Shown here one piece after another: positions 767-19,878 of a stretch of DNA of 23,874 nucleotides. The stretch's first letter is position 1. Every line of letters starts with the position of its first letter. The stretch is from Nanopusillaceae archaeon (GTDB lineage: Archaea > Nanobdellota > Nanobdellia > Nanobdellales > Nanobdellaceae), in contig JBMFJL010000004.1 in the NCBI GenBank assembly GCA_049973735.1, forward strand, positions 1 to 23,874, given 5' to 3'. The notes under the pieces were generated by a model. It was given only the letters and a program-made list of their open reading frames with translations. It made no database searches and was not told where the DNA came from. Position numbers and translations under genes: made by a program.

Positions 767-1885
767 TTATATAGTTATATGATTTAATGTATTATGTTTA
801 TGTGCATATATTTGGTTGTGCTGACTAATAATATTGTTTATATCCTTAATATATGAATTGTAATCTCCTATAATATTTTTTACATCTCTTATAGCTGCAA
901 AAGCTTCATTCAAATTTCTTAAAGTTTCTTTATCAAGTGCACCTCTAGCATGATGCAAGAAGTTATTGGTAATTCTTTCTAAGTTTTTTATAGATTGAGC
1001 AGTTTCTTCTAGATTTTTATGATTGTTCATCAAGTTATTAATTTCATCTTCTTGTAATATTCGTGTTTTACCAGTTGCAACTAGATTTTTAGTATTATTC
1101 AAAATCCATTCAGACTCTGATCGATATGCCTGAGCTAGGGATTTGATTCCTTCGGACAAACTTCTAGCATCATCTCCAGCCAAAAGTCTTTTAATTTGAT
1201 TAATTCTTCCTATACCCAACAATCTTTTTAATCTGTCCATTTCCTTTTTTGCTATAGCTTTTTTAAGTTGCTTTCTAAGATGTTTTATTTCTTGCTCAAT
1301 ATATTCGTTCTTTTGTTGTAAATATCCAGCTTTTTCTTTCATTGCCTCTGCTTCTGCTCTATATCTTTCTGTAGCAAATTTGGCAGCATGTGCTTTATGT
1401 TTGTGATAGTATGCTTTACCTCTATGATATGCAGCTGTAAATAGGGCAAATAAAACTAGACCTCCTAAGACAATAATACCAACCAATCCTATAAGTCCAA
1501 ATATTACAATTGCAAATGGAGCCATAAAGTAAGCAGACATTAAGGCTAAAATAATGGTTACTAAAATGGATGCTCTTCTGATAGTTTCATCAGATCCTCC
1601 TCCAATCTTATCGATAAGAGGTTTTAGAAATATATAATATATTGCGAAGAAAAACAATACAGTTAAACTGAATAGTATTAAACCACCACCAACTCCAGGA
1701 ATGTTTAATGATTCTGCTGTTGTATGATATACTGAAGGTATGGCAGCATTTAACAAACTTATGGTATATTCAAGTCCTTTCTTAAGCGAATTGGTCAATT
1801 GTTCTATAATGTCGCCATTCTGGGAAAATACGCTATTGAACAATAAGGTGACTATCAATAGATACTTTAATTTTTTGATTTCCAT
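767..1885 (-). CDS. Hypothetical membrane protein: N-terminal signal peptide, about 4 TM helices, long C-terminal coiled-coil/His-Lys-rich domain
   Basis: 372-aa ORF. The N-terminus MEIKKLKYLLIVTLLFNSVFSQ looks like a signal peptide. Hydrophobic segments span aa ~65-160. The remainder is heptad-like and K/E/R/L-rich (ERYRAEAEAMKEKAGYLQQKNEYIEQEIKHLRKQLKKAIAKKEMDRLKRLL). I recognise no family. Confidence 0.6.
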   Translation of the reverse strand: MEIKKLKYLLIVTLLFNSVFSQNGDIIEQLTNSLKKGLEYTISLLNAAIPSVYHTTAESLNIPGVGGGLILFSLTVLFFFAIYYIFLKPLIDKIGGGSDETIRRASILVTIILALMSAYFMAPFAIVIFGLIGLVGIIVLGGLVLFALFTAAYHRGKAYYHKHKAHAAKFATERYRAEAEAMKEKAGYLQQKNEYIEQEIKHLRKQLKKAIAKKEMDRLKRLLGIGRINQIKRLLAGDDARSLSEGIKSLAQAYRSESEWILNNTKNLVATGKTRILQEDEINNLMNNHKNLEETAQSIKNLERITNNFLHHARGALDKETLRNLNEAFAAIRDVKNIIGDYNSYIKDINNIISQHNQIYAHKHNTLNHITI

Positions 1886-1921: not shown

Positions 1922-2674
1922 TTACTGAAGGTTGGTAATCTTAAAATAATTCAATATCTCTCTTTTCATTATGTTTTTGATTTCTGTAGATTTATCTAAT
2001 GCTAATTTTAATGCCTCTCTCAGTTCACTAGTCTTTATTTCTCCATCTAACTGAATAGAAGTAAATTTTTTTTCAGAAGGGATGATAGCAACGGGTATAT
2101 CTGTTGCCCTACCCTCCCCATAATAATTTATATATTTACTTTTTTCAGGATCATTTTTTAATTTTTCAGAATCATAATCTTCTTCAAATTTGTTTAAATC
2201 TACTACAATTCTTTCTCCAACTTTTCCAACTGCAACAGCTACTACTAGATCTTTCATTGGAATTCCCGCCAATGCTAATGCCAATGATGTAGCATTTATA
2301 CTTGCAGTTCTTGTTCCCGCATCAGCATTTAATATTTCTATATATACATCTATGATACTTCCTGGTAATTCTTCTAAAAATAAGGCAGGCTCTAATGCTC
2401 TTTTTATTACTCTAGATAGTTCTATTTCTCTCCTACCGGGTGCTGGCTTTTTTCTTTCTGGTACAGAAAATGTTAGCATATTATATCTTACCCTTAAGAA
2501 TGCTTTATCATAATCAATCGACATTTTTGATGGTTTTGGTCCATATACTGCTGCTAGAGCTACTGTATCACCAAAAGAAAATATTGCAGAACCTTTGGAA
2601 TTTTCTAGTGGATTTAGTTTAATATTTATTTTTCTTAGTTCGTTATATTCTCTTCCATCAAATCTTTTCATCAT
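1922..2674 (-). CDS. rrp41: Exosome complex exonuclease Rrp41 (RNase PH domain)
   Basis: FDGREYNELRKINIKLNPLENSKGSAIFSFGDTVALAAVYGPKP, LRVRYNMLTFSVPERKKPAPGRREIELSRVIKRALEP and IDVYIEILNADAGTRTASINATSLALALAGIPMKDL track Sulfolobus Rrp41 almost position by position. It lies directly downstream of rrp4 with a 1-nt gap. Confidence 0.92.
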   Translation of the reverse strand: MMKRFDGREYNELRKINIKLNPLENSKGSAIFSFGDTVALAAVYGPKPSKMSIDYDKAFLRVRYNMLTFSVPERKKPAPGRREIELSRVIKRALEPALFLEELPGSIIDVYIEILNADAGTRTASINATSLALALAGIPMKDLVVAVAVGKVGERIVVDLNKFEEDYDSEKLKNDPEKSKYINYYGEGRATDIPVAIIPSEKKFTSIQLDGEIKTSELREALKLALDKSTEIKNIMKREILNYFKITNLQ

Positions 2675-2675
2675 C

Positions 2676-3308
2676 TTAAAATAAATCTTTTTCTATAATT
2701 TCTTTAACCTTTTCGGTCAAGCCTTTTTTATAGGAGTTTTCTTCTATAAACTTTATTATCTTTATTGCTTTTAATATGTTTCTTTCATCACCATTTAAAT
2801 ACACTCTACCATTTTTTCCAACAATTATCTCTATTTTTAAACCTTCTTTTATTAAATTGATCATCGAATTGTTTTTTCCGATTATTCTGGGTAATTTAAC
2901 CGGGTCCACATTTATTATCAATCCATCATTCAATTTTTTCTTTTTTTTTACAGCCAAATTTATTATCTTATTTTTAGTTACTTTTATTATTTGTACTAGA
3001 ATAAAATCTCCATAAGTAAATATGTCGTTTGGATCTATAATTTCTTCTTGTCCCAATAATTTTAATGCTAAAAATCCTAAATATGGCGAGTTTATATCTA
3101 CGAACCACCCGTTTGGGAGAACATCAATGACTCTTCCTATTACAATATCATTTAGTTGTGGTATATAAAATCCTGATAACCTAGTAATTTTCATTTTACC
3201 CACTTTATTTTCTAATAATCCAATGTACTTTGAATAATAATTATTGTCTTTTTCATAAGAATTTTCAACTTTTTTATTACCAACAGGATCACCAGGTATT
3301 ACTATCAT
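2676..3308 (-). CDS. rrp4: Exosome RNA-binding subunit Rrp4 (N-terminal domain + S1 + KH)
   Basis: IVIPGDPVG N-terminal motif. S1-like YIPQLNDIVIGRVIDVLPNGWFVDINSPYLGFL. KH-like PVKLPRIIGKNNSMINLIKEGLKIEIIVGKNGRVYL. Conserved rrp4-rrp41 order. Confidence 0.9.
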   Translation of the reverse strand: MIVIPGDPVGNKKVENSYEKDNNYYSKYIGLLENKVGKMKITRLSGFYIPQLNDIVIGRVIDVLPNGWFVDINSPYLGFLALKLLGQEEIIDPNDIFTYGDFILVQIIKVTKNKIINLAVKKKKKLNDGLIINVDPVKLPRIIGKNNSMINLIKEGLKIEIIVGKNGRVYLNGDERNILKAIKIIKFIEENSYKKGLTEKVKEIIEKDLF

Positions 3309-4411
3309 TAGAGATATTGTATAACATCATTTTTAAAGATGTTTTCCAGGTAATATTCTCTCTCATTTTTATGCTTTATCTTTTCTATTTCATTTTCTAG
3401 TATATTAAATAAATTGTTTACAGTTGAGTAAAATTCATACCCGGATTCTTCTGCATATAATTTTGTTTTTTCTGAAATTAATCTTGCCTTCATCACATAA
3501 TATATTTTTCTCTCTCTTATATTTTCATTTACCTTTTTTACATGAATTATTAATCTAGCTTCTCCAATTACATTTTTATATTTTCTATAAAAAGATTCAT
3601 ATTTATTTTTAATGTATTTTTGATCTATTTCGTCTAAAGGAATTCCAAATACAGTTATATTAATTTCTTCTTCTTTTTTAAGCTGTAAGTAATGTATCAG
3701 TATATCTTTAGCTGTTATTATTGTTACTGGTTTTCCGTTATCTAAAACAGGTACAGAAAATATTCTGTTTCTTATCAGCAAATCAATTACTTTTTCTATA
3801 CTATCATTTTTATTTGCAAATATCAATTGTCTATTTATTATAGATCTTACTTCTACTTCTAAATCAGTTAATTCTGGAGTTCTTAATTTTTCATTATCTT
3901 TTATCAATAAATATCTTAAGATATCTGAAAGAGAAAGTATTCCTATCGCTTCTCCTTTTTCATTTACAACAATCAATCTAGAAACACCCTTATGTTTCAT
4001 AATGCCAATTGCCTTATCTATTGTATCTTTTTCATCTATGGTGTAAACATTTCCACTGAAATCTTCAATTTTAATTTTTTCTAAAATTTTTTTATCATTT
4101 ATTATGGTTTTTAATATATCAAAAATGCTGTAAACAACAATTTTACCATCTTCTTCCACTATAATTGATCTTAAATTAGAATTTATCATCTTTTCAATTA
4201 TTTCAACTATATCCTTTGTTTTTAGAGGTTTTATTTTTATCATTATTTTTTCTATATTGGTTTCTGGTTTGTTTAAATATCTTAAAGCCTTTTCATTTGA
4301 AACCAACCCAATATATTTGCCCTTATTATTTGTTATAACAATATCTTCGCCCTTTGCAATATAATTTACTATATCTTTTATTTTTTTGTCATTTGTAACA
4401 AATACTGCCAT
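3308..4411 (-). CDS. Four-CBS-domain (two Bateman modules) protein with a C-terminal HPF/RaiA-like domain
   Basis: Four CBS repeats (e.g. VYTIDEKDTIDKAIGIMKHKGVSRLIVVNEKGEAIGILSLSDILRYLL; LIFANKNDSIEKVIDLLIRNRIFSVPVLDNGKPVTIITAKDILIHYL). The C-terminal ~100 aa (INITVFGIPLDEIDQKYIKNKYESFYRKY...ARLIIHVKK...YYVMKARLISEKTKLYAEESGYEFYSTVNNLFNILENEIEKIKHK) resemble HPF/YfiA. The stop overlaps the rrp4 ATG (TAATG at 3306-3310). Confidence 0.8.
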   Translation of the reverse strand: MAVFVTNDKKIKDIVNYIAKGEDIVITNNKGKYIGLVSNEKALRYLNKPETNIEKIMIKIKPLKTKDIVEIIEKMINSNLRSIIVEEDGKIVVYSIFDILKTIINDKKILEKIKIEDFSGNVYTIDEKDTIDKAIGIMKHKGVSRLIVVNEKGEAIGILSLSDILRYLLIKDNEKLRTPELTDLEVEVRSIINRQLIFANKNDSIEKVIDLLIRNRIFSVPVLDNGKPVTIITAKDILIHYLQLKKEEEINITVFGIPLDEIDQKYIKNKYESFYRKYKNVIGEARLIIHVKKVNENIRERKIYYVMKARLISEKTKLYAEESGYEFYSTVNNLFNILENEIEKIKHKNEREYYLENIFKNDVIQYL

Positions 4412-4439
4412 AAAAATATATTAATAAAAATTATTTATA

Positions 4440-5093
4440 TTATTTCTTTTTACCAGCAGATTCGTACAGATCATATACTGCCTCACCCGGTGCCAATATA
4501 ATATATTTGTATTTTTTCTTTGGTTTTTTAGGTTGAGGTGGTTTAGTTACCCAGGCTACAACTGCTATTAGCAATCCTATTACTATAATAAGTGGTAGTA
4601 AACCAGTATTAATCAAGAAATCTAATATTGTCAATAATGCGCCAGCAGCAGTTTGTCCAAATTCATCAAATGAAACTGAAGAGGCATACATAAATGCAAA
4701 TAAAACTAATAAACCTAAAATTCCCGTAATTGCATTATTTGCATATCCTTTGTATCTATTGAATGCTTCATCTTTTGGATCATAAGGTCTTGATACCAGT
4801 GATAGTAGTCCTATTACCATTAATATAAAAAATAATACTAGGAATTCAAAGAAGAAGAATGATATAAAGTTTTCTGTAAATATTACAGCTTGTAAATTAT
4901 ATATATAATAAGCGGCTAGAGCAAATGATACTACAGCATATAGTTTTTCTCTTGCAGGATTATCTCTACCAAAGATTCCGGTTTTTCTTAGTAATCCATA
5001 CATTAATGAAAATATTAATAAAAATGGGGCTATAATCGAAAATACACCATATTCAGAAAATGCAGCATATAGGAAAGATGTTATATCCATCAT
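4440..5093 (-). CDS. Multi-pass membrane protein, paralogue 3 of a tandem triplet (unknown family)
   Basis: 217 aa. N-terminal motif EYGVFSIIAPFLLIFSLMYGLL. C-terminal TM ending VVAWVTKPPQPKKP, then a lysine-rich tail. The start overlaps the stop of the upstream paralogue. Confidence 0.75.
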   Translation of the reverse strand: MMDITSFLYAAFSEYGVFSIIAPFLLIFSLMYGLLRKTGIFGRDNPAREKLYAVVSFALAAYYIYNLQAVIFTENFISFFFFEFLVLFFILMVIGLLSLVSRPYDPKDEAFNRYKGYANNAITGILGLLVLFAFMYASSVSFDEFGQTAAGALLTILDFLINTGLLPLIIVIGLLIAVVAWVTKPPQPKKPKKKYKYIILAPGEAVYDLYESAGKKK

Positions 5094-5632
5094 CTAGATC
5101 TTGAGTGATCTCCACCGCTTTGGCCAGGAGATGTTACCCAATATACTATTAAGAATAGTAGCAAGAATATTATTAACAGTGTTAATAAGCCAGATTGGAT
5201 TAGAAAATCTATAATATATCCAAATAATCCTACGAATCCAAAGTTAACATTTGCTTCATTCATTGCATTTACTGCTAGCCAAATCATTATTCCTACAACA
5301 ATCAATCCAAGTATTGCCCTTGCAGGTCCTGGTACATGTCTTCCAAATGCTGCTATAATTACTGCTAATAGGAAAAAGGCTAAAACTGCAAAAGAAGCAT
5401 TTGGAATAAATTTCAATAACCATATGACTAAATTGATGTTTGCCATAGATAGTAAGGCAAAAGAAAATGAAAATAGTATACTTAATTTCCTTCCAACAGG
5501 ATCATTTGGGGAAACTTTCAATAATCCTGAAAGTTCTAATATCATATAAACTAAAGAAAATATTAACAAAAATGGTAATATAAAGTCGAAAAATCCGTAT
5601 TGGCTTAATAATGTTCTTATATCTAATGCCAT
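5090..5632 (-). CDS. Multi-pass membrane protein, paralogue 2 of a tandem triplet (unknown family)
   Basis: 180 aa. QYGFFDFILPFLLIFSLVYMIL at the N-terminus and LIVYWVTSPGQ at the C-terminus. Ends in RSR-stop like paralogue 1. Confidence 0.75.
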   Translation of the reverse strand: MALDIRTLLSQYGFFDFILPFLLIFSLVYMILELSGLLKVSPNDPVGRKLSILFSFSFALLSMANINLVIWLLKFIPNASFAVLAFFLLAVIIAAFGRHVPGPARAILGLIVVGIMIWLAVNAMNEANVNFGFVGLFGYIIDFLIQSGLLTLLIIFLLLFLIVYWVTSPGQSGGDHSRSR

Positions 5633-6207
5633 TATCTAGATCTATTGTCTGGAGATTGAACCTTTGGGGCCTTTGTAACCCAAACAACAAATCCAAATAG
5701 TATTCCTAATATTATCAATGTTTCTATTAGATTTATTAAAAATTCGTTCTGTGCCAATTGACTAAACACTTCTTGCAATGATAATAAATAATTAAATATT
5801 CCGAGTGTAAATAAAACTACAATTGTAAAAATAATGGAAACTAGAGCTATGAATATTCTTTTTTGTGTAGGTCCTAACTTTACTTCACCACCTTCAGATA
5901 TAAATGGCGCTATTGCTAGTAATAAAAAGAATACTGTTAGTATGAATAAAACTATGTATGGTAATAAATTTTTTATGGCAAGGACTATGTTCACAGCACC
6001 AACAACTAAAAACCCTACAGATGCAGAGATCATGGATATTAAACTTCTGGCAACTTTTCCTTCTCTATCATCGCTGAAAGGATTTCCCAATAATTTATAT
6101 TTGGACAATAATCCGTACATGACAGCATACACGAGTAAGAAAGGAATAATCATATTGAAGAATCCAATGTTTTCTAATAATGAAAGTACGCCATTATATA
6201 ATGCCAT
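5632..6207 (-). CDS. Multi-pass membrane protein, paralogue 1 of a tandem triplet (unknown family)
   Basis: 191 aa. NIGFFNMIIPFLLVYAVMYGLL at the N-terminus and FGFVVWVTKAPKVQSP at the C-terminus. Ends in RSR-stop, which overlaps the next ATG (TAATG). Confidence 0.75.
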   Translation of the reverse strand: MALYNGVLSLLENIGFFNMIIPFLLVYAVMYGLLSKYKLLGNPFSDDREGKVARSLISMISASVGFLVVGAVNIVLAIKNLLPYIVLFILTVFFLLLAIAPFISEGGEVKLGPTQKRIFIALVSIIFTIVVLFTLGIFNYLLSLQEVFSQLAQNEFLINLIETLIILGILFGFVVWVTKAPKVQSPDNRSR

Positions 6208-7501: not shown

Positions 7502-8329
7502 GTGGAGGAAAGATTTGTAAGAGTGACAGATATAACAGATTATTTATTTTGTCCTAGAAAGGTTTATCTTAAAAGAGTTTTGGGTTATGAGGAAGAAACA
7601 AATGAAAAAAAGATATTTGGATCGATAGTACATAACATTTTGGATAATTTAAATGAGAGGGAATATGAAATTGTCTATAATATAAAGGAAAATAGAGGAT
7701 ACGAATATGTAAAAAAATTATATGAAGATTTTGTTTTAGAATTAATTGATAAATCTATAAAAAAATTTGAGAAAGATATAAAAAAACTAAATATAGATGT
7801 GGAAAAAATTAAATTTCAAGTATTTTCTTATATATATAAAGAAATAGAAGATAGATCGAAAAATATATTTAATTTCATGAGCGAAAATGATTTATATGGT
7901 ATAGAGTTATGGTATTCTTTGGAACCAAAGATTTTGACAGAATTCGATACAATATCTAGAAAGTATAATATAATTGGTAGAGTTGATAGAATAGAAAAAT
8001 ATAATAAAAGAAAAGAAATTATTCCATATGAAATAAAATCGGGATTTTTCAGTAGAGATCATATAACTCAAATATATACCTATTATTTATTGTTGAAAGA
8101 TGAGTTCCCAGATTATAAAATATACAAAGGATATATCTATTATGTTAAAGATAATAAAAAATTTGAAATAGAATTTACAAATAAAAACGAGATAAAAAGA
8201 ATTTTGGAAATAAAGGATAAAATATTAGATATGATTGAAAGTGAGAAAGATCCGGGAAAAGTATATAAAGAAAAATGCCAAAAATGTGTATTTTACAATG
8301 TTTGTTGGAAAAATGGAAATAAAAATTGA
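7502..8329 (+). CDS. Cas4-family / RecB-like PD-(D/E)xK exonuclease with a 4-Cys Fe-S motif (stand-alone, GTG start)
   Basis: N-terminal ITDYLFCPRKVYLKRVLG. Nuclease core GRVDRIEKY...IIPYEIKSG. QIYTYYLLL (QxxxY). C-terminal CQKCVFYNVCW (Cx2Cx5C). This is the classic Cas4/DUF83 layout. Confidence 0.82.
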   Translation: MEERFVRVTDITDYLFCPRKVYLKRVLGYEEETNEKKIFGSIVHNILDNLNEREYEIVYNIKENRGYEYVKKLYEDFVLELIDKSIKKFEKDIKKLNIDVEKIKFQVFSYIYKEIEDRSKNIFNFMSENDLYGIELWYSLEPKILTEFDTISRKYNIIGRVDRIEKYNKRKEIIPYEIKSGFFSRDHITQIYTYYLLLKDEFPDYKIYKGYIYYVKDNKKFEIEFTNKNEIKRILEIKDKILDMIESEKDPGKVYKEKCQKCVFYNVCWKNGNKN

Positions 8330-9107
8330 CATAACTAAAAGTATATACGAGAATATTAACGATATTTATGAAAAAATTAAAGAATTAAAAAGAAAAAAGG
8401 AAAAAATAGAAGAAGTAATTAAAGAATTGGAAAATAAATTGAATAATATTGAAGAAAATATAAAAATTGAAAAGAAAAAAGAAGAAAAAAAGAGAAATAA
8501 AAAATGGTATGAAAAGTTCAGATGGATGATAACTTCTAATAATTTTCTTTTGATTGCTGGTAGGGACAGCAAGCAGAATGAACTATTAATAAATAAATAT
8601 TTAGAGGAAAACGATTTAGTATTTCATGCAGATATAGTCGGATCTCCGTTTGGTATATTAAAAAATGGGAAAAATGCAAAAGAGCAAGATATATATGAAG
8701 CAGCGAAATTCGTTGGATCATATTCTAGAGCATGGAAAATCAAATTATCCTCAGTAGACGTATATTATGTATATCCTGAACAAGTGTCTAAAACTGCACC
8801 ATCTGGCATGTATATTAAAAAAGGGTCATTTATGATATATGGAAAGAGGAATTATATAAAAGTAAAGCTTGAAATTGCATTGGGATTTGAAGAATATACT
8901 GTAATTCCTGGTATACCGGAGAATATAGTCAACAGGTATAAAAGTTATGTTATACTAGTCCCTGGAAATAAAAAACCATTGGAAATTGCCAAAGAATTAA
9001 GTAAAGTTTTTAAAGTTGATGTAGAAGATATAATAAGATATCTTCCTGGTGACAGTGATATATACTTATTGCAGGATGGTAACATTTATAAAGATTACCG
9101 TCAATGA
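8313..9107 (+). CDS. NFACT-R (DUF814) protein, equal to the C-terminal half of the archaeal NEMF/Rqc2 ribosome-quality-control homologue (coiled coil + NFACT-R only)
   Basis: KWYEKFRWMITSNNFLLIAGRDSKQNELLINKYLEENDLVFHADIVGSPFGILK, AAKFVGSYSRAWKIKLSSVDVYYVYPEQVSKTAPSGMYIKKGSFMIYGKRNYIKV. The ORF is open from 8235. ATG 8313 (MEIKIDITK...) cuts the overlap with the upstream gene from 95 to 17 nt. Confidence 0.8.
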   Translation: MEIKIDITKSIYENINDIYEKIKELKRKKEKIEEVIKELENKLNNIEENIKIEKKKEEKKRNKKWYEKFRWMITSNNFLLIAGRDSKQNELLINKYLEENDLVFHADIVGSPFGILKNGKNAKEQDIYEAAKFVGSYSRAWKIKLSSVDVYYVYPEQVSKTAPSGMYIKKGSFMIYGKRNYIKVKLEIALGFEEYTVIPGIPENIVNRYKSYVILVPGNKKPLEIAKELSKVFKVDVEDIIRYLPGDSDIYLLQDGNIYKDYRQ

Positions 9108-11277: not shown

Positions 11278-11958
11278 TTACTCTAAATGAGCCTTTTTAA
11301 TTATATACTCAGCATAATTTTTTTCTACTCTAATTTCATATTCATCAATAACAATTTCTTTTTTAAATAATGGTTGATATAATACGAATGTTTCATATTC
11401 TCCACCTTCTCCAACCAAGTTTATTTTGTATTTTTTATTATAGTCTATTAGTTTGTTCAGAATGTTTTTATCAAAAATCTTCCCAAGGATACTAATATCT
11501 AAAGGATAAGCATACCAGCCGGTTATTATAAATTTAAAATTATTTCTTAATAATTCATTTAAGTATTCTATTTCATCCTTTAACCATAGAGGATTAAAAC
11601 ACGATAAGTTTAGCTTTTTACATATTTTTTGGAATCTTGTTGCTTGATATTCTGATCTTATTGCTCCGGTAACTACTCCTTCAATTTTATATTCTTCTTT
11701 CAAATATTCTAATGCATTTTCAAGCGTTTTTTCTTCATCAAGATCGCTATGAAATATTTCTATTGGAATTTCTAGGGCTTCTGCCTGTAATCTAGTATAT
11801 TCATGGTTTATATAATGATATAAATAACTCTCACTATTTTTAGGTACAATATTTAATAAAACTTTAATTTTATGAGATTTTGACGCTATATATAAAGAAT
11901 AATTTGAGTCTTTTCCACCAGAATATAAAACTGCTAAGTTCATCCTAAAATTATCCAA
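11278..11958 (-). CDS. dph6: Diphthine-ammonia ligase (Dph6 / MJ0570-type PP-loop ATPase). The likely true start is ATG 11943, an ATGA overlap with the upstream stop.
   Basis: MNLAVLYSGGKDS (PP-loop SGGKDS), VVTGAIRSEYQ, LWLKDE, VGEGGEYETFVL. These are characteristic motifs of the diphthamide synthetase family. Confidence 0.85.
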   Translation of the reverse strand: MDNFRMNLAVLYSGGKDSNYSLYIASKSHKIKVLLNIVPKNSESYLYHYINHEYTRLQAEALEIPIEIFHSDLDEEKTLENALEYLKEEYKIEGVVTGAIRSEYQATRFQKICKKLNLSCFNPLWLKDEIEYLNELLRNNFKFIITGWYAYPLDISILGKIFDKNILNKLIDYNKKYKINLVGEGGEYETFVLYQPLFKKEIVIDEYEIRVEKNYAEYIIKKAHLE

Positions 11959-12566
11959 TTGGTTCTATAATTTATCATCTGACGGATCAAATTATCTAGA
12001 TAATCATCTGATAGTCTTGTTACATTAATTTCACATTCTCCAATACAATATAGATTATTATTATAACTTATTATATAAGTCTCTCCAATAGATAGATTTA
12101 CTATAAAGTTATTAAAATCAAAATATTGTTTAACAATTAGGATAGGATATGAAATATTTATGTAGTATGTTTTATTATAACAAAATGGATTACAAGGATA
12201 GCAAATATTTTCATTACAGTTCATTGTGCATGCTATAGGTATACATGTTTCAACCGTTTCATTAATTACAATATTTTCATTACATATAATTACATCTGAA
12301 GTATTTAGGTAATCTATAAAAATTAATGCATCATTGAAGTTTATTGCAATATCTACAGGATGAATTATAAAATAGCTGTTGCTCGAATTTAATTTATAAC
12401 ATCCATATTTATAAAAAATAATTCTTTGTGCAGATATATTTTGATCATTTATGCTCAAAACAACATTTTCTGTATAATAGTCACCTACTTTAGATAAATT
12501 TGAAAGTAAAAATAAAATAACTAATGATAATATCGCATATATGATCAATTTAAGATTTTTTATCAT
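11940..12566 (-). CDS. Hypothetical secreted or signal-anchored Cys/Asn/Tyr-rich protein
   Basis: 208 aa. N-terminal hydrophobic anchor LKLIIYAILSLVILFLLS. A 12+ Cys ectodomain (CIPIACTMNCNENICYPCNPFCYNKTYY, LYCIGECEIN) with many N-x-S/T sequons. No family recognised. Confidence 0.55.
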   Translation of the reverse strand: MIKNLKLIIYAILSLVILFLLSNLSKVGDYYTENVVLSINDQNISAQRIIFYKYGCYKLNSSNSYFIIHPVDIAINFNDALIFIDYLNTSDVIICNENIVINETVETCIPIACTMNCNENICYPCNPFCYNKTYYINISYPILIVKQYFDFNNFIVNLSIGETYIISYNNNLYCIGECEINVTRLSDDYLDNLIRQMINYRTNWIILG

Positions 12567-12709
12567 AAAATAATTTTTATAATATTTTTATATAAATTTT
12601 GGTGGCCGAGACCTTTGTATTATTCATTTATTATATGTTTATTCAAAATAATCAGAATTTAAATTAGAAATTATAATAGGGATAATTTTTAAATTCTTGC
12701 TTTTCATGG

Positions 12710-12718
12710 TTTATAAAA
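12710..12718 (+). promoter_or_regulatory. TATA box of the EF-2 gene (leaderless transcript predicted)
   Basis: tttataaaa is centred about 26 nt upstream of the ATG at 12740, the canonical archaeal TATA-to-TSS spacing. This places the TSS at or next to the start codon. Confidence 0.45.
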
Positions 12719-12739
12719 TATTTTAAATTAAAATAGTAA

Positions 12740-14944
12740 ATGGCAACTATTACCGAGAGAGTATTGAAATTAATGAATAACCCAAATAATATTAGAAACA
12801 TAGGGATAATAGCGCATATCCATCATGGAAAAACAACATTGACAGATTCTCTATTAGCGGGTGCAGGAATGTTGGCAGAAGAACTAGCCGGAGAAGCTAT
12901 GTTTACATGGTGGCATGAAACTGAAAAAGAAAGGGAGATGACAGTTTATGGTGCCGCAGTATCGATGGTTCATGAATATGAAGGACAGGATTATTTAATT
13001 AATCTAATAGATACGCCTGGTCATGTAGAATTTTCTGGACAAGTTACTAGAGCTGCTAGAGCAATCGATGGTGCAATAGTTGTAGTAGATTTTGTTGATG
13101 GTGTTATGCCTCAGACAGAATCTGTACTGAGAACCGCATTGAAAGAATATGTAAAACCTGTATTATTTATAAATAAAACTGATAGAGCTATTACTGAATT
13201 AAAATTATCTCCTCAACAGATTATGGAAAGAATTGGAAAAATAGTGATTGAAGTAAATAGATTAATCGATAAATATTCACCCGCAGAATTTAAAGGTAAG
13301 TGGTTGGTAAATGTAAATGATGGATCTGTAGCATTTGGTTCTGCAAAATTCCATTGGGCACTATCCGTTCCATTTATGAAAAAATATAATGTATCATTCA
13401 AAGATGTAATAGAAATATATAATAAGTATGGTAATGATAAGGAAAAATTGAAGGAAGAAATGAGAAAGAAGGCACCTGTTGCTAAGGTTGTTTTGGATAT
13501 GGTAATAAGGCATTTGCCATCTCCTGTTGAAGCTCAAAAATATAGAATACCACATATATGGAAGGGAGAAATAGAATCTGAAGTAGGCAAAGCAATGTTA
13601 AACTTAGATCCAAATGGACCATTAATAATAAATGTTACAAATGTAATAATTGATAAAGTATCAAAGCAAGAAATTGCAACTGCAAGGATATTTTCTGGAA
13701 CATTATCTAAAGGTGATGATGTATTTTTATCTCAGGCAAATAGACAAATAAAGATACAACAAGTAGCTATATGGAAGGGAATACAGAGGATAAATGTAGA
13801 TTATGCAAAAGCCGGAAACATTATTGCATTAGTTGGAATCAAAGGATTATATCCTGGAGAAACAATTATTGGAAAGGTACAAGATCCAAAGTCTGTAGCA
13901 ACTTTTGAAGAGCTGAAACACTGGTTAGAACCAGTAGTTACAAAATCTTTTGAACCAAAGAATCCAAATGATTTACCAAAATTAATTGAAACATTAGAAT
14001 TAATTAAAAGGGAAGACCCAACAATAAAAGTAGAGCAAAGAAAGGATACAGGAGAAATATTGGTATCTGGTTTGGGAGATTTGCATTTACAAATAATAGA
14101 ATATAGAGTACAAAATGATTTTGGAATACCAATAAAGGTTGGAGAACCAATTGTAGTATACAGAGAATCTGTATTAAAGCAAACTCAGATACATGAAGGA
14201 AAATCTCCAAACAAACATAATAAACTATATTTCCAAGTAGAACCATTGCCACCAGAGATTTATGAAAAACTTAGAGAATATATAAGGGAAGGAAAGATAC
14301 CGGAAGGAAGGATTAAGAAAGAAGATTTGTGGAAGGTATTTGCAGAAATAGGATTTGATAAAGAAGAAGCAAGAAGAATAATAATGGTATGGAATGGAAA
14401 TGTATTGATTGATATGACTAGAGGTATAGTACATTTGCCAGAGGTAATAGAATATATAGTAGAAGGATTTAAGGAAGTAATGGAACAAGGACCAATAGCT
14501 TGGGAACCTGGAATAATGATGAAAGTAAAATTGATTGATGCTGTGTTACATGAAGATGCCATACACAGAGGTCCAGCTCAAATAATACCTGCTGCAAAAG
14601 ATGCAATAAAGGAGGCAATATTGGAACAGGCAGTTTTATATGAACCATTACAAATCATAAGAGTAGATGCACCACCAGAAAATGTAGGAGACGTAAGTTC
14701 ATTATTACAATCTAGAAGAGGACAAATAATTGAGATGAATATGGAAGAGGATAGAGTAATAATAAAGGCAAAGATCCCTGTAGCAAATATGTTTGGATTT
14801 ACAGATGAGTTAAGATCTGTAACATCTGGAAAAGGTGTATGGTTCTTGGAAGATCAGGTATTCGAAAAGGTACCAAGAGATTTGCAAGAACAAATTATAC
14901 AAAATATAAGAAAAAGAAAGGGAATACCAGAGGGGGTTCACTAA
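12740..14944 (+). CDS. fusA: Translation elongation factor 2 (aEF-2)
   Basis: IRNIGIIAHIHHGKTTLTDSLL (G1), LINLIDTPGHVEF (G3), FINKTDR (G4), diphthamide loop HEDAIHRGPAQ. 734 aa, full length. Confidence 0.97.
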   Translation: MATITERVLKLMNNPNNIRNIGIIAHIHHGKTTLTDSLLAGAGMLAEELAGEAMFTWWHETEKEREMTVYGAAVSMVHEYEGQDYLINLIDTPGHVEFSGQVTRAARAIDGAIVVVDFVDGVMPQTESVLRTALKEYVKPVLFINKTDRAITELKLSPQQIMERIGKIVIEVNRLIDKYSPAEFKGKWLVNVNDGSVAFGSAKFHWALSVPFMKKYNVSFKDVIEIYNKYGNDKEKLKEEMRKKAPVAKVVLDMVIRHLPSPVEAQKYRIPHIWKGEIESEVGKAMLNLDPNGPLIINVTNVIIDKVSKQEIATARIFSGTLSKGDDVFLSQANRQIKIQQVAIWKGIQRINVDYAKAGNIIALVGIKGLYPGETIIGKVQDPKSVATFEELKHWLEPVVTKSFEPKNPNDLPKLIETLELIKREDPTIKVEQRKDTGEILVSGLGDLHLQIIEYRVQNDFGIPIKVGEPIVVYRESVLKQTQIHEGKSPNKHNKLYFQVEPLPPEIYEKLREYIREGKIPEGRIKKEDLWKVFAEIGFDKEEARRIIMVWNGNVLIDMTRGIVHLPEVIEYIVEGFKEVMEQGPIAWEPGIMMKVKLIDAVLHEDAIHRGPAQIIPAAKDAIKEAILEQAVLYEPLQIIRVDAPPENVGDVSSLLQSRRGQIIEMNMEEDRVIIKAKIPVANMFGFTDELRSVTSGKGVWFLEDQVFEKVPRDLQEQIIQNIRKRKGIPEGVH

Positions 14945-15322: not shown

Positions 15323-16156
15323 TTATATTTTAGGTTGATATATATGTATCATATATAGATAGGTAATATATGAAAAAGGAAGAATTACTACGAAGAAAAA
15401 GGTTAATGATGATAAGATTGATGGATTACCGGATGCGAATGAGAATAGAAATGCAAGTATTAACAATACTATTGGAAAAGTTATGAAGAAAAATGCATAT
15501 AATGTTATCCATAAATTTGTTTTTTCGTTGTATGCTTTCAACTGTATTTCATATTCTCCTAATCTTTCTTTTGCATATATTTTGGCAAAATCTCTTAAAG
15601 ATCCTCCAGATTTAATTACAGATACCAATCCATAAAGGAATTCTTTGAACTTTTCAGATGGTGTCGAATTTGCAACTTTTATTAATGCAGATACTATATC
15701 ATATCCGAATAGATCAATTAGCAATATTAAGTATGATAATTCTTTATTAATTGCGCCGAAGTTCTTCTTTTTATTCAATAGCTTAAATATTTCTATTATA
15801 TTCATTCCAGAACCGGAATAAGAGTAAAAGTATAAGGCAAAGAATGGTAGATTATCTTCTAAATCTTTTATATAATCTGCTCTAGCCATATCTGGATAAA
15901 AATAAAAATAAATAAAAACTAATGAAGAAACTATTATTGAAAACAATAAGTTCATTAAAAATAAAACTATGTCATAAAATCCTGCAGTTAATATTAATAT
16001 AAAAAACATAGAAATAAAACTAAGTATGAAGAATAATATTACATAGTCTATTACAATTTTTACATATTCTTCTACAGTTACTTTGAAACTAGTATAGACT
16101 AAAGATCCTTTTTTGTTTACAAAGTACGGATATAGTTTTCTTACAAGATATTTCAT
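15323..16156 (-). CDS. Type IV filament platform membrane protein with a single T2SSF domain (FlaJ/TadC-like, half-size)
   Basis: 277 aa. TM hairpins flank a cytoplasmic T2SSF-like segment (LPFFALYFYSYSGSGMNIIEIF...LIKVANSTPSEKFKEFLYGLVSVIKSGGSLRDFAKIYAKERLGEYE). 4-nt overlap with the upstream ATPase gene. Confidence 0.75.
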   Translation of the reverse strand: MKYLVRKLYPYFVNKKGSLVYTSFKVTVEEYVKIVIDYVILFFILSFISMFFILILTAGFYDIVLFLMNLLFSIIVSSLVFIYFYFYPDMARADYIKDLEDNLPFFALYFYSYSGSGMNIIEIFKLLNKKKNFGAINKELSYLILLIDLFGYDIVSALIKVANSTPSEKFKEFLYGLVSVIKSGGSLRDFAKIYAKERLGEYEIQLKAYNEKTNLWITLYAFFFITFPIVLLILAFLFSFASGNPSILSSLTFFFVVILPFSYITYLYMIHIYQPKI

Positions 16157-17703
16157 TTTATTTTTGATAGTAAAGCGTCTTTATCCAGATAATATAGCTT
16201 TATATAATCGCTAATCTTCTTTTGGTCTCTTATATTCTTTTTAACTAAATATTCTATTATTTCTTCTTTTTCTTCTATTGCATCCTTTATTGGCTTTTTG
16301 TAACCTCTCCTATATTTTAATTCTTCTTCTATTAATTTTCCTAGATTTTTTATTTCATATTTATCTTCATCTACATTCCATTTTACAGTTATTTCTGTCT
16401 CTATTTTTTCATTTTTGAATTTTCCAACTTCAACTATTTCTCTGATCCTTCTAGATGATGGAGAAATACTTCTCGCTCTAATCATAAATATAACTGCATC
16501 TAATAATGCTACATGATCAATTGGAAGATTTATTGGCGGTGTTGTTAGCCTTCTTATCAATGATCTCCATGTATCTGCGTGTATTGTTGATAGTGAAGAA
16601 TGACCAGAAGCCATACCTTGGAACATTACATATGCCTCTTCTCCTCTAACTTCTCCAACTACTACATAATCAGGATTTTGTCTAAAAGATTCTGCAAGTA
16701 AAGTATACATATTAATTTCTCCATAGTATTTATCTCCTATCATAAATCCTTTTCTTGTTGTTGCAGGTATCCAATTTTCATGATATAATTGTAATTCTCT
16801 AGTATCTTCTATGGATATTACTTTTGCATCCGGTGGTATAAACATTGATAAAACATTTAGTAGAGTTGTTTTACCTGAAGATGTAGGACCTGCAACAAGA
16901 ATATTAGCTCTATATTCTACTAAAGTCCAAAGATATGCAGCAACCTTTATATCTAAAGTATTTAATTTTATTAAATCTACTAACGATAACATCTGTTTTT
17001 TAAATTTTCTAATATCGAAGGTTGGACCTCTTGTTGTAATTTCCTGTGAATATGTTATATTTATTCTAGAACCATCTGGTAGGGTTGCATCTAAAAGTGG
17101 TTCTGCATATGATATATGTTTACCAGCTTTTTGAGCCAATTTTATTATAAATTTGTCTAGTTCTTCTCTTGAGAAATATATATTCGTTTTTAATGTACCA
17201 AATTTACTGTGATATACATATATAGGAGAGTCATAACCATCACAAGAAATATCTTCTATAAATACATCATGAAACAGAGGTTCTATTTTTTCAAGTCCCA
17301 ACATATCCCTCCATAAATAATAATAATATTTCATAAATGTTCTGGGATTTATTTTTATTTTAAATTTTTTTACATATTTATATAGTGCTTCAATTAATAT
17401 TGATTTTTTATCAGTATTCAAATACTTATCAGGATCAATATACATATCATCTAATACGAATTGTTTTACTTTATTTAAGAAAAATATCTCTTCATTAGAC
17501 AGTTCAGGTTCTAATACTTCATAAACCAACTCTTCTGATATTAAATCATAGTAAATATGAGCATATGCGAAATTTCCTATTAGTGGATAGATAATATTTA
17601 CTTTTTCTTTTTTCTCTTTTATTTCAAAATTTGGAATGTAATTTTGCTTTTTTATTTCCTCATCAAATTCTTTCAATATATCATTTACATTAATCTTTTT
17701 CAT
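16153..17703 (-). CDS. FlaI/PilB-type secretion ATPase (archaeal type IV filament assembly, VirB11/GspE superfamily)
   Basis: YEVLEPELSNEE N-domain motif. LVAGPTSSGKTTLLNVL (Walker A). PDYVVVGEVRGEEAYVMFQGMASGHSSLSTIHA (Walker B + His box). IEDTRELQL (Asp box). Confidence 0.9.
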   Translation of the reverse strand: MKKINVNDILKEFDEEIKKQNYIPNFEIKEKKEKVNIIYPLIGNFAYAHIYYDLISEELVYEVLEPELSNEEIFFLNKVKQFVLDDMYIDPDKYLNTDKKSILIEALYKYVKKFKIKINPRTFMKYYYYLWRDMLGLEKIEPLFHDVFIEDISCDGYDSPIYVYHSKFGTLKTNIYFSREELDKFIIKLAQKAGKHISYAEPLLDATLPDGSRINITYSQEITTRGPTFDIRKFKKQMLSLVDLIKLNTLDIKVAAYLWTLVEYRANILVAGPTSSGKTTLLNVLSMFIPPDAKVISIEDTRELQLYHENWIPATTRKGFMIGDKYYGEINMYTLLAESFRQNPDYVVVGEVRGEEAYVMFQGMASGHSSLSTIHADTWRSLIRRLTTPPINLPIDHVALLDAVIFMIRARSISPSSRRIREIVEVGKFKNEKIETEITVKWNVDEDKYEIKNLGKLIEEELKYRRGYKKPIKDAIEEKEEIIEYLVKKNIRDQKKISDYIKLYYLDKDALLSKIK

Positions 17704-19838: not shown

Positions 19839-19878
19839 TTACTAAGACTTTTAAGAATAATTTTTTAATAATTTCTAA
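19839..19878. promoter_or_regulatory. 40-nt bidirectional promoter spacer between rnj (-) and glyS (+)
   Basis: ttactaagacttttaagaataattttttaataatttctaa. The TATA-like ttttaagaataa is centred about 25 nt upstream of the glyS ATG, and the complementary A/T box serves rnj. Confidence 0.35.

What the first reader, a model, noticed from the sequence alone, without database searches (positions are those of the whole stretch)
3308..4411. Four CBS domains fused to an HPF/RaiA-like ribosome-hibernation fold, translationally coupled to the exosome genes
Residues ~1-245 are four clear CBS repeats, that is two Bateman modules, which are classical adenosyl-ligand (ATP/AMP/SAM) sensors. Residues ~250-350 (nt 3362-3664) read INITVFGIPLDEIDQKYIKNKYESFYRKYKNVIGEARLIIHVKKVNENIRERKIYYVMKARLISEKTKLYAEESGYEFYSTVNNLFNILENEIEKIKHKNE. 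By eye this follows the beta-alpha-beta-beta-beta-alpha pattern and conserved positions of bacterial HPF/YfiA. For comparison, E. coli HPF as I recall it reads [78 protein letters not shown]. HPF/RaiA is regarded as a bacterial/plastid family, so finding it in an archaeon, fused to an energy-charge sensor, would be unusual. The fusion suggests nucleotide-gated ribosome silencing. The gene's stop overlaps the rrp4 start (TAATG), so it is co-expressed with the RNA-decay machinery.
Basis: partly seen in the sequence, partly recalled or inferred. Interest (0 to 1): 0.78.

Follow-up and report, generated by a model that had tools for sequence, protein, structure and literature searches.

The report
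Nanoarchaeal HibA ribosome hibernation factor

Summary
ORF 3308-4411 (-) encodes 367 aa. [quoted passage not shown] Its TAA stop overlaps the rrp4 ATG (TAATG), and rrp41 follows.

Evidence for the fold:
- A C-terminal profile hits only HPF/RaiA chains plus P. abyssi HibA in the PDB.
- The top 29 Foldseek hits of the AlphaFold model of that domain are all HPF/RaiA/pY.
- The clade profile aligns over 325 columns with experimentally characterised Thermococcales HibA (hhalign 99.6%, E=1.4e-24).

This architecture is no longer unusual. HibA (Nat Commun 2026; preprint October 2025) and AHA (bioRxiv 2026) have cryo-EM structures on ribosomes, AMP/ADP/ATP binding data and knockout phenotypes. HibA is reported in about 47% of archaeal genomes.

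The source is a Nanopusillaceae (DPANN) MAG. Two points go beyond the papers:
- hibA-rrp4-rrp41 is tightly coupled in 13/13 species genomes of this clade, and in none of three confirmed HibA loci outside it.
- The clade has a shorter PTC loop without the GEK-type motif, and it lacks the conserved 'ERQL' arginine.

Verdict: a new member of a known kind, of low-to-moderate interest.

The parts
3308..4411 (-). hibA/AHA-family gene, 367 aa; the stop codon TAA is at 3308-3310
   Evidence: ORF list. BLASTP to P. abyssi HibA gives E=6e-19. hhalign of the clade profile against Thermococcales HibA gives 99.6% probability, E=1.4e-24, over 325 columns.
3671..4411 (-). N-terminal CBS tetrad, residues 1-247. 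The four CBS motifs span roughly residues 2-46, 53-105, 113-170 and 186-246, forming two Bateman modules.
   Evidence: Pfam CBS E=2.9e-28. AF2 secondary structure. Foldseek matches to MJ1225, AMPK-gamma, and ribosome-bound SriA and Dri. The canonical G-h-h-S/T-x-x-D motifs occur in CBS3 (G157-D163) and CBS4 (T230-D236).
3851..3904 (-). CBS3-CBS4 linker, residues 170-187. It is the equivalent of the Pa-HibA 'PTC loop' (residues 190-207), but it is shorter and lacks the G-E-K type motif.
   Evidence: The loop region is 18 aa here, against 22 aa in Thermococcales and as the family median. The G[ED][KR] motif is present in 0/10 members of this subclade. Pa E201 maps to P179, K202 to E180, and Y195 is deleted (contact list).
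3314..3664 (-). C-terminal HPF/RaiA-like domain, residues 250-366. Elements: beta1 251-255, alpha1 264-282, beta2 285-297, beta3 302-313, beta4 317-324, and a long alpha2 327-366.
   Evidence: AF2 models. Top 29 Foldseek hits are all HPF/RaiA/pY. Profile against PDB sequences. Sub-threshold hits to PF02482 and TIGR00741.
3503..3523 (-). beta2-beta3 hairpin insertion, N297-I303. It matches the archaeal-specific insertion 324-KFRGVHL-330 of Pa-HibA, which contacts uS12 and h44 A1461.
   Evidence: Aligned without gaps to Pa-HibA. E. coli HPF has a 9-residue gap at this position. The insertion is defined in the paper.
3306..3310 (-). TAATG junction: the hibA stop (TAA) overlaps the rrp4 start (ATG) by one base
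   Evidence: Sequence read directly. In 13/13 related genomes the same junction is either an overlap or a spacer of 1-2 nt.
2676..3308 (-). rrp4, the exosome cap subunit (S1 + KH domains), 210 aa
   Evidence: NCBIfam Rrp4 E=3.1e-56 (190 bits; cut-off 200). Pfam RRP4_S1, KH_6 and S1.
1922..2674 (-). rrp41, the exosome RNase PH ring subunit, 250 aa. It starts 1 nt after the rrp4 stop. No rrp42 follows.
   Evidence: TIGR02065 E=6e-75. Pfam RNase_PH E=7e-34.
4412..4439 (-). 28-nt AT-rich spacer upstream of hibA with TATA-like runs. It is a possible promoter for a transcript with a short leader or none.
   Evidence: Sequence. A T-rich, TATA-like element lies about 7-20 nt upstream of the ATG in the related loci. 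Promoter function is inferred only.

Best explanation
The gene encodes a nanoarchaeal orthologue of the archaeal ribosome hibernation factor HibA (also named AHA).

By homology with the cryo-EM structures of P. abyssi HibA and H. volvanii AHA (H. volcanii), the mechanism would be as follows. [quoted passage not shown] The N-terminal CBS tetrad docks on the 50S subunit over the tRNA sites. One polypeptide therefore bridges both subunits. It blocks mRNA and tRNA binding, keeps idle 70S ribosomes assembled, and shields them from nucleases during starvation or stress. The CBS3/CBS4 pair binds adenine nucleotides.

Shown here:
- the architecture, the fold, and homology to the characterised proteins;
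- conservation of the gene across the Nanopusillaceae-type clade;
- a tight hibA-rrp4-rrp41 gene arrangement in that clade.

Inferred:
- ribosome binding and nucleotide binding by this particular protein;
- co-transcription with rrp4-rrp41, and translational coupling to rrp4 through the TAATG overlap.

The clade's PTC loop is short and lacks the conserved contact residues. I therefore expect the PTC-plugging conformation to be weak or absent, with 30S channel occlusion as the core activity.
For: - Full-length homology to Pa-HibA: phmmer against PDB 9sr9_H gives E=9.7e-18 over query residues 15-342. BLASTP to P0260 gives E=6e-19. hhalign gives 99.6% probability, E=1.4e-24, over both modules.
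- HPF fold: Foldseek ranks 1-29 are all HPF/RaiA/pY. All 17 profile hits in PDB sequences belong to the HPF family or are HibA.
- CBS tetrad: Foldseek matches to AMPK-gamma, MJ1225, SriA and Dri.
- The archaeal-type beta2-beta3 insertion is shared with Pa-HibA.
- Family-conserved positions retained: Pa R336 maps to R310, R157 to K139, Y317 to H290, and there are basic residues at K344 and K348.
- The gene is conserved at 43-66% identity in 13 species genomes.
- Function of homologues: cryo-EM on 70S and 30S, in-vitro translation inhibition that requires the C-terminal domain, AMP Kd 12 uM, and a delta-hibA strain with about 60% fewer 70S ribosomes and delayed regrowth. For AHA: two AMP molecules bound and a knockout phenotype.
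Against: - There is no direct evidence for this protein. Identity to Pa-HibA is only 23%.
- Of the 53 Pa-HibA residues that contact the 30S subunit, only 4 are identical and 16 similar.
- The 'ERQL' arginine (Pa R366) is also present in E. coli HPF and YfiA. It is N340 here and non-basic in 21/21 clade members, against K/R in 35/49 other HibA representatives.
- PTC-loop contact residues K192, Y195, E201 and K202 are not retained, and the loop is 4 residues shorter.
- The window protein has T230 where 56/57 family members have the Gly of the CBS4 nucleotide-site motif.
- Hits to the curated HPF models are below threshold. However, Pa-HibA and Tb-HibA do not hit PF02482 at all.
Confidence: 0.85

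Rival explanations
1. Exosome-linked factor. In this clade the protein has been recruited as an accessory or regulatory subunit of the reduced exosome, which lacks Csl4. It would use the HPF-like RNA-binding domain and the adenylate-sensing CBS tetrad to tune RNA decay, or to couple the exosome to ribosomes. It would not act as, or not only as, a hibernation factor.
For: - hibA-rrp4-rrp41 has an overlap or a 1-2 nt spacer at the hibA/rrp4 junction in 13/13 genomes spanning Nanopusillus, Nanobsidianus, Nanobdella, Nanoclepta and YN1.
- Ribosome-contact residues have diverged, including loss of the ERQL arginine and of the PTC-loop motif.
- Cluster 2 DPANN are reported to lack the Csl4 cap subunit.
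Against: - The adjacency sits inside a larger block of conserved gene order: ferredoxins, three TM paralogues, hibA, rrp4, rrp41. It may therefore reflect synteny within one family rather than function.
- One clade member has an extra gene between hibA and rrp4.
- There is no exosome linkage at P. abyssi hibA or at two other confirmed HibA loci.
- No known exosome subunit has this fold.
- The full HibA architecture is maintained.
Confidence: 0.07
2. Generic CBS-domain regulator. On this view the C-terminal domain is an unrelated alpha/beta regulatory module, such as an ACT or ferredoxin-like domain, or a transcription-factor module as in the CBS-tetrad regulator HhpR. The resemblance to HPF would be coincidental.
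For: - Public annotations are generic or wrong: 'CBS domain-containing protein', 'predicted transcriptional regulator', 'homoserine O-acetyltransferase'.
- Scores against PF02482 and TIGR00741 are below the curated cut-offs.
- NCBIfam HhpR hits the CBS part at E=4.8e-10, but with only 39 bits against a cut-off of 520.
Against: - Foldseek: 29 consecutive top hits are HPF/RaiA/pY, and the first other fold has TM 0.26.
- The profile search returns only HPF-family chains.
- The end-to-end alignment with HibA includes the C-terminal domain.
- HhpR-type proteins are standalone tetrads without this domain.
Confidence: 0.02
3. Decaying or functionally reduced copy. In a genome-reduced ectosymbiont the protein may be losing hibernation activity. 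It would retain the fold but no longer bind the ribosome productively.
For: - Low conservation of the Pa-HibA contact residues, and the T230 substitution.
- In the N. acidilobi complete genome, hibA carries an apparent frameshift in a poly-A run, giving a stop at codon 11.
Against: - Full-length intact ORFs at 43-66% identity occur in 12 of 13 species genomes of very small size (about 0.6-0.8 Mb). That argues for purifying selection.
- The AF2 models are confident.
- The gene keeps its place at the head of an essential-gene operon.
- Divergent contacts can equally reflect co-evolution with fast-evolving nanoarchaeal rRNA and ribosomal proteins.
Confidence: 0.06

Closest known systems
HibA (Pyrococcus abyssi Q9UYR4 / Thermococcus barophilus F0LKU5; PDB 9sr9 series; Madru et al., Nat Commun 2026, PMC13324472; preprint 10.1101/2025.10.11.676729)
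   Same: [quoted passage not shown]
- Homology runs over the full length.
- Both carry the beta2-beta3 archaeal insertion.
- Both have canonical nucleotide-site motifs in CBS3 and CBS4.
   Different: - 23% identity, and 25 residues shorter.
- The PTC-loop region is 4 residues shorter and has no GEK-type motif.
- The beta1-alpha1 insertion (Pa 283-SAL-285) is reduced.
- The ERQL arginine and most of the basic 30S contact residues are not conserved.
- The gene heads an rrp4-rrp41 operon, whereas P. abyssi hibA is unlinked to the exosome genes.
[quoted passage not shown]
   Same: It is the same family under another name. The HPF domain sits in the 30S channel, the CBS tetrad covers the A and P sites of the 50S subunit, and AMP binds at the CBS3/CBS4 junction.
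   Different: In AHA the extended 'loop 3' of CBS3 inserts into the PTC. The equivalent loop here is short and divergent. Haloferax has no exosome, so no operon link is possible there (abstract of PMC10470531).
Bacterial and plastid HPF / RaiA (YfiA) / pY (Pfam PF02482, TIGR00741)
   Same: The C-terminal domain has the same fold (TM up to 0.83). It aligns end to end with E. coli HPF at E=1.1e-4.
   Different: - The bacterial proteins have no CBS tetrad. Long HPF instead carries a C-terminal dimerisation domain.
- The archaeal hairpin insertion is absent.
- The bacterial 'xRQL' arginine is replaced by Asn here.
- The window protein scores below the curated family cut-offs.
Standalone or doubled CBS-tetrad ribosome factors: SriA-D / ARC-A/P (Methanosarcina) and Dri (Thermoproteota)
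   Same: They are CBS tetrads that bind ribosomes. They are structural neighbours of the N-terminal module: 9znf_4 E=2e-15 and 9e6q_3 E=1.5e-14.
   Different: They have no HPF domain. The papers report that their phyletic distribution is largely complementary to that of HibA.

Membership tests
HibA/AHA archaeal hibernation factors | N-terminal module of four tandem CBS motifs (a CBS tetrad) | tested here: met
   Pfam CBS E=2.9e-28, with 2-3 repeats seen by sequence. The AF2 model shows four units. Foldseek aligns 257-296 columns to known tetrads.
HibA/AHA archaeal hibernation factors | [quoted passage not shown] | tested here: met
   AF2 topology. Foldseek top 29 hits are all HPF/RaiA/pY. The profile hits only HPF-family chains and 9sr9_H.
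HibA/AHA archaeal hibernation factors | Sequence homology to experimentally characterised members across both modules | tested here: met
   phmmer against 9sr9_H E=9.7e-18. BLASTP to P0260 E=6e-19. hhalign 99.6% probability, E=1.4e-24, query 20-348 against template 33-373.
HibA/AHA archaeal hibernation factors | Archaeal-specific insertions in the HPF domain: beta1-alpha1 (Pa 283-285) and the beta2-beta3 hairpin (Pa 324-330) | tested here: inconclusive
   The hairpin insertion is present at full length, N297-I303. The beta1-alpha1 insertion is reduced: 2 residues shorter than in Pa-HibA, and no gap relative to E. coli HPF. The paper shows that deleting both insertions does not abolish inhibition.
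HibA/AHA archaeal hibernation factors | Extended loop in CBS3 (the PTC loop, or loop 3) that inserts into the peptidyl-transferase centre | tested here: not met
   The loop region is 18 aa, against 22 aa in Thermococcales and as the family median. The G[ED][KR] motif occurs in 0/10 members of this subclade. Pa Y195 is deleted, E201 maps to P179, and K202 maps to E180. This concerns one of the three binding states and is not the architecture that defines the family. Family representatives range from 17 to 32 aa.
HibA/AHA archaeal hibernation factors | Adenine-nucleotide site at the CBS3/CBS4 interface | tested here: inconclusive
   The G-h-h-S/T-x-x-D motifs are present in CBS3 (GILSLSD) and CBS4 (TIITAKD). 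However, the window protein has T230 where 56/57 family members have G. Binding itself cannot be tested with these tools.
HibA/AHA archaeal hibernation factors | Binding in the 30S mRNA/tRNA channel and inhibition of translation | not testable with these tools
   Only indirect evidence is available. Of the 53 Pa-HibA 30S contact positions, 4 are identical and 16 similar. Family-conserved R336, and the basic positions aligned with Pa Q370 and L374, are retained. The R366 equivalent is lost.
Bacterial HPF/RaiA (Pfam PF02482 Ribosomal_S30AE; NCBIfam TIGR00741 yfiA) | Score at or above the curated family threshold | tested here: not met
   PF02482: 22.1 bits against 23.7 for the isolated domain, and 18.6 bits for the full protein. 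TIGR00741: 26.1 bits against 40.9. PF02482 matches 7 of 21 clade members at E<=0.01. The characterised Pa-HibA and Tb-HibA give no hit at E<=1. The domain is homologous to, but is not a member of, the bacterial equivalog families.
Archaeal exosome operon (rrp4-rrp41-rrp42) | Downstream genes are Rrp4 (S1 + KH) and an Rrp41-type RNase PH subunit | tested here: met
   NCBIfam Rrp4 E=3.1e-56 and Rrp41 E=6e-75. Both are the best hits but lie slightly below the equivalog cut-offs. The Pfam domains are above threshold. No rrp42 is adjacent.

The most novel reading that the evidence does not exclude
In Nanopusillaceae-type Nanoarchaeota, ribosome hibernation and exosome-mediated RNA decay would form one functional module. 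HibA is made from the same mRNA as the exosome cap and ring subunits and is translationally coupled to rrp4. The ribosome protector and the main 3'-5' RNase would then be produced in a fixed ratio. Alternatively, HibA might physically bridge ribosomes and the Csl4-less exosome. Its degenerate PTC loop and its lost 'ERQL' arginine would mark a changed binding mode on the nanoarchaeal ribosome.
Probability: 0.12. Interest if true: 0.55.

Novelty: new member of a known kind. Interest (0 to 1): 0.27.

Why it matters
For annotation, this gene and its relatives should be renamed HibA/AHA. They are currently labelled 'CBS domain-containing protein', 'predicted transcriptional regulator' or 'homoserine O-acetyltransferase'.

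Biologically, obligate ectosymbionts with genomes of about 0.6-0.8 Mb keep a hibernation factor, which suggests that ribosome preservation matters for their host-dependent lifestyle.

Two lineage-specific features are cheap, testable leads into how HibA binding modes evolve and whether ribosome protection is coordinated with RNA decay:
- hibA heads the rrp4-rrp41 operon in this clade.
- The clade has lost the PTC-loop motif and the conserved ERQL arginine.

Tried and rejected
- **The search for related loci on genome contigs.** Diverse alignments A4, A5 and A6 failed because no stretch was conserved enough. The broad synteny test therefore rests on few loci outside the clade: P. abyssi (L012), P0176 (L010) and P0128 (L011).
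- **P0022 (L008).** It was dropped as evidence because its C-terminal domain did not match the HPF-like profile or PF02482.
- **Word-indexed searches.** The searches with A4 and A6 returned almost only Nanoarchaeota or Thermococcales.
- **Foldseek PDB copy.** It runs only to 8 April 2026 and evidently lacks the 9sr9 HibA entries. Structural identity to HibA itself was therefore shown by sequence and profile, not by fold search.
- **First loop-motif regex.** My first regex was too permissive, since 'NEK' counted as a match. A stricter count replaced it.
- **HVO_2833_C (PF24271).** The hit was weak, E=0.019 against a cut-off of 34 bits, and I did not pursue it.
- **ACT or ferredoxin-like fold for the C-terminal domain.** Rejected on the fold-search result.
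- **tRNA genes.** None are present in the window.
- **Bacterial sigma-70 promoter/terminator scan.** Not used, because it does not apply to archaea.
Full report
**1. Observation**

The window carries an ATG-initiated ORF at 3308..4411 on the minus strand, encoding 367 aa. It is 100% identical to an NCBI protein annotated 'MAG: CBS domain-containing protein [Nanopusillaceae archaeon]', from a contig of exactly the window's length. The window is AT-rich, with about 23-32% G+C.

The hibA stop and the rrp4 start overlap as TAATG, read directly from the sequence. The next two genes are:
- an Rrp4 homologue at 2676-3308 (NCBIfam Rrp4 E=3.1e-56; Pfam RRP4_S1, KH_6 and S1);
- an Rrp41-type RNase PH subunit at 1922-2674 (TIGR02065 E=6e-75), which starts one base after the rrp4 stop.

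All three elements of the observation are therefore in the sequence at the stated coordinates.

**2. The N-terminal module**

Pfam CBS scores E=2.9e-28 but resolves only two or three of the repeats by sequence. An AlphaFold2 model built on 21 clade sequences is confident, with mean pLDDT 90 and pTM 0.87. It shows four beta-alpha-beta-beta-alpha CBS units in residues 1-247.

Foldseek against the PDB aligns 257-296 columns to known CBS tetrads:
- MJ1225, E=2e-16;
- AMPK-gamma;
- ribosome-bound SriA (9znf_4, E=2e-15);
- Dri (9e6q_3, E=1.5e-14).

The canonical ribose/phosphate motif G-h-h-S/T-x-x-D is present in CBS3 (GILSLSD) and CBS4 (TIITAKD). These are the repeats that bind AMP or ATP in the characterised relatives. 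The window protein is unusual in having T230 where 56 of 57 family members have Gly.

**3. The C-terminal module**

The isolated 124-residue C-terminus hits PF02482 (Ribosomal_S30AE / sigma-54 modulation protein) over profile positions 2-87 of 88. The score is E=2.6e-4 and 22.1 bits, against a gathering score of 23.7. It also hits TIGR00741 (HPF/YfiA) at E=8.8e-6. Both hits are below the curated thresholds.

Three further lines of evidence show that this is not a chance resemblance.
- A profile of 13 clade C-termini, searched against all PDB sequences, returns 17 hits at E<1. Every one is an HPF, RaiA/YfiA, pY or PSRP1 chain, or 9sr9_H. E. coli HPF aligns end to end at E=1.1e-4.
[quoted passage not shown] Its Foldseek ranks 1-29 are all HPF/RaiA/pY structures, with TM up to 0.83 and rmsd 2.1-3.7 A. 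The first unrelated fold appears at rank 30 with TM 0.26.
- The experimentally validated P. abyssi and T. barophilus HibA proteins do not hit PF02482 at all at E<=1. A sub-threshold Pfam score is therefore normal for this archaeal branch, and even generous.

Neither is met.

**4. What it is**

phmmer against PDB sequences gives a full-length hit to 9sr9_H, labelled 'Dehydrogenase', 392 aa. The hit has E=9.7e-18 and spans query residues 15-342, crossing the domain boundary.

A literature search identified this chain as HibA of Pyrococcus abyssi (Madru et al., Nat Commun 2026, PMC13324472; preprint October 2025). The same family is described as AHA in Haloferax volcanii (Souza et al., bioRxiv 2026, PMC12934967). 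Later searches returned the P. abyssi protein itself as P0260. BLASTP of the window protein against it gives E=6e-19 and 23% identity over residues 23-342. hhalign of the 21-sequence nanoarchaeal profile against a Thermococcales HibA profile gives 99.6% probability and E=1.4e-24 over 325 columns, covering both modules.

A profile search of 1.84 billion representative proteins found many proteins of 360-400 aa matched over their full length. One JGI orthologue is already annotated 'CBS domain-containing protein/ribosome-associated translation inhibitor RaiA'.

**5. How it most likely works**

This section is inferred by homology. The experiments were done on relatives.

- In P. abyssi, the HibA C-terminal domain sits in the 30S mRNA/tRNA channel, as bacterial HPF does. 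It contacts h44, h18, h31, h24, h28, h23, uS12, uS19, uS9, uS7, uS11 and eS28.
- The CBS module occupies three alternative positions on the 50S subunit: the PTC, uL5 and the L1 stalk. Together these cover the A, P and E tRNA sites.
- Recombinant HibA inhibits translation in lysate. The C-terminal domain is required and the N-terminal module alone is inactive.
- A delta-hibA strain of T. barophilus has about 60% fewer 70S ribosomes in stationary phase and a doubled lag on regrowth.
- The isolated CBS module binds AMP (Kd 12 uM) more tightly than ADP (65 uM) or ATP (113 uM). Saturating AMP or ATP did not substantially change the conformational landscape on the ribosome.
- AHA shows two AMP molecules at the CBS3/CBS4 junction and a loop of CBS3 inserted into the PTC.

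For the window protein I infer the same two-subunit clamp mechanism. 'Nucleotide-gated' silencing remains a hypothesis even for the type members.

**6. How this member differs**

I mapped the Pa-HibA ribosome contacts in the PTC state (Supplementary Data 1) onto the window protein through a 79-sequence alignment. Conservation is low.
- Of the 53 contact positions with the 30S subunit, 4 are identical and 16 similar.
- Of the 28 contact positions with the 50S subunit, 1 is identical and 4 similar.

Some of this divergence is family-wide, but two features are specific to the clade.

First, the PTC-loop region (Pa I187-M208) differs.
- It is 18 residues in the window's subclade, against 22 in Thermococcales and as the family median (range 17-32).
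- The G[ED][KR] motif occurs in 9/9 Thermococcales sequences. Elsewhere the E201 column is E/D in 38/49 and the K202 column is K/R in 35/49. The motif is absent in 0/10 members of the window's subclade.
- Pa Y195, which stacks on the universally conserved A2834, has no counterpart here.

Second, the arginine of the 'ERQL' motif differs.
- It is Pa R366, which contacts h44. The same motif appears as 'ARQL' in E. coli HPF and 'ERQL' in YfiA.
- It is N340 in the window protein and non-basic in 21/21 clade members.
- It is K/R in 35/49 other HibA representatives and R in 9/9 Thermococcales sequences.

Several features are retained:
- Pa R336 maps to R310, and this column is K/R throughout the family.
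- Pa R157 maps to K139.
- Pa Y317 maps to H290, and H is the family majority at this column.
- Basic residues are present at K344 and K348.
- The beta2-beta3 hairpin insertion N297-I303 is present. Its Pa-HibA equivalent contacts uS12 and A1461.

I therefore expect 30S-channel occlusion to be preserved, perhaps with re-wired contacts. I expect the PTC-plugging state to be weakened or lost. This is inference. Alignment error at 23% identity could shift individual positions.

**7. The exosome linkage**

Neither paper mentions an operon or exosome link for hibA. A further literature search found none.

Within the clade the arrangement is invariant. In 13/13 GTDB species-representative genomes recovered by the scan, hibA is followed by rrp4 and then rrp41. 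These genomes are Nanopusillus spp., N. acidilobi, Nanobsidianus stetteri, Nanobdella aerobiophila, Nanoclepta minutus, strain YN1 and MAGs. The hibA/rrp4 junction is either TAATG or a 1-2 nt spacer. This agrees with the individual look-ups. One more distant member (36% identity) has an extra 149-aa gene between hibA and rrp4.

The adjacency is embedded in a longer conserved block: ferredoxins, three paralogous membrane proteins, hibA, rrp4, rrp41. It may therefore simply reflect synteny within one family.

Outside the clade there is no link.
- P. abyssi hibA lies between a NikR-like gene and unrelated genes.
- Two other HibA genes with confirmed HPF-like C-termini lie next to an M48 peptidase gene, and next to genes for S17e and tRNA-splicing endonuclease.

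The coupling is real but lineage-specific. Co-transcription and termination-reinitiation at TAATG are inferred from spacing only. It is curious that a factor believed to protect ribosomes from nucleases is co-encoded with the main archaeal 3'-5' RNase. Cluster 2 DPANN are also reported to lack the Csl4 cap subunit. I keep a functional link as the 'novel case', at about 12% probability.

**8. Novelty and verdict**

The claim of unusualness has been overtaken by publication. HibA/AHA is reported in about 47% of archaeal genomes, or 2,723 species in 17 phyla. Nanopusillaceae genomes were in the surveyed database.

The gene is a new, uncharacterised and mis-annotated member of a known kind. The residual interest lies in three points: the clade-specific hibA-rrp4-rrp41 operon, the degenerate PTC loop with the lost ERQL arginine, and the retention of a hibernation factor in genomes of about 0.6-0.8 Mb.

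- Confidence that it is a HibA homologue: about 0.97.
- Confidence that it functions as a ribosome hibernation factor: about 0.85.
- Interest: 0.27.

Noticed in passing
window 4440-5093, 5090-5632, 5632-6207 (all minus strand): Three tandem paralogous multi-pass membrane proteins of 217, 180 and 191 aa, 27-33% identical to each other. They have no significant Pfam family and their stops and starts overlap. They lie directly upstream of hibA. The same order is conserved in 12 of 13 related genomes; the 13th contig is too short to tell. They are not found near hibA outside the clade.
   Followed up: partly
L020 (Candidatus Nanopusillus acidilobi 7A, CP010514.1), about 30 nt into hibA: The hibA start reads ATG ACA GTA TTT ATA TCT AAG GAT AAA AAA TAG. 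The poly-A run has one A fewer than in relatives, which gives a stop at codon 11. The tblastn match resumes at residue 10 in another frame. This could be a homopolymer sequencing error, a pseudogene, or a slippage-prone site. The window gene has the same A7 run near its 5' end.
   Followed up: partly
window 767-1885 (-) and the region downstream of rrp41; L001, L003: No rrp42 follows rrp41 in the window or in any related locus. Instead there is a 372-aa ORF with N-terminal TM segments and a long coiled-coil region, which has no convincing Pfam hit. The literature reports that Cluster 2 DPANN encode Rrp4/41/42 but lack Csl4, so rrp42 is presumably elsewhere. I did not verify this.
   Followed up: partly
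window residue T230 of HibA (nt 3722-3724): The window protein has Thr where 56 of 57 HibA-family sequences have the Gly of the CBS4 G-h-h-T-x-x-D nucleotide-site motif. All other clade members have the Gly. This is a single-MAG variant of unknown significance.
   Followed up: no
window 7502-9107 (+), 11278-14944, 18510-21816: The neighbourhood is rich in translation and RNA-metabolism genes: a Cas4/PD-(D/E)XK-like nuclease (7502-8329), an NFACT-R domain protein related to ribosome quality control (8235-9107), diphthamide synthase (11278-11958), aEF2 (12740-14944), RNase J (18510-19838) and a class II aminoacyl-tRNA synthetase (19879-21816). A T2SS E/F-type ATPase and membrane-protein pair lies at 15323-17703.
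   Followed up: no
P0260 / P0246 compared with the window protein: The nanoarchaeal HibA C-terminal domain is closer to the bacterial Pfam HPF model (22 bits) than are the experimentally characterised Thermococcales HibA proteins, which give no hit at E<=1. Public names for clade members are misleading: 'homoserine O-acetyltransferase' in Nanobdella aerobiophila, and 'predicted transcriptional regulator'.
   Followed up: yes
Genome-contig scan: Nanoarchaeum equitans did not appear among the 13 loci recovered with the clade patterns. Either it lacks hibA, or its copy is too divergent for the two peptide patterns used.
   Followed up: no
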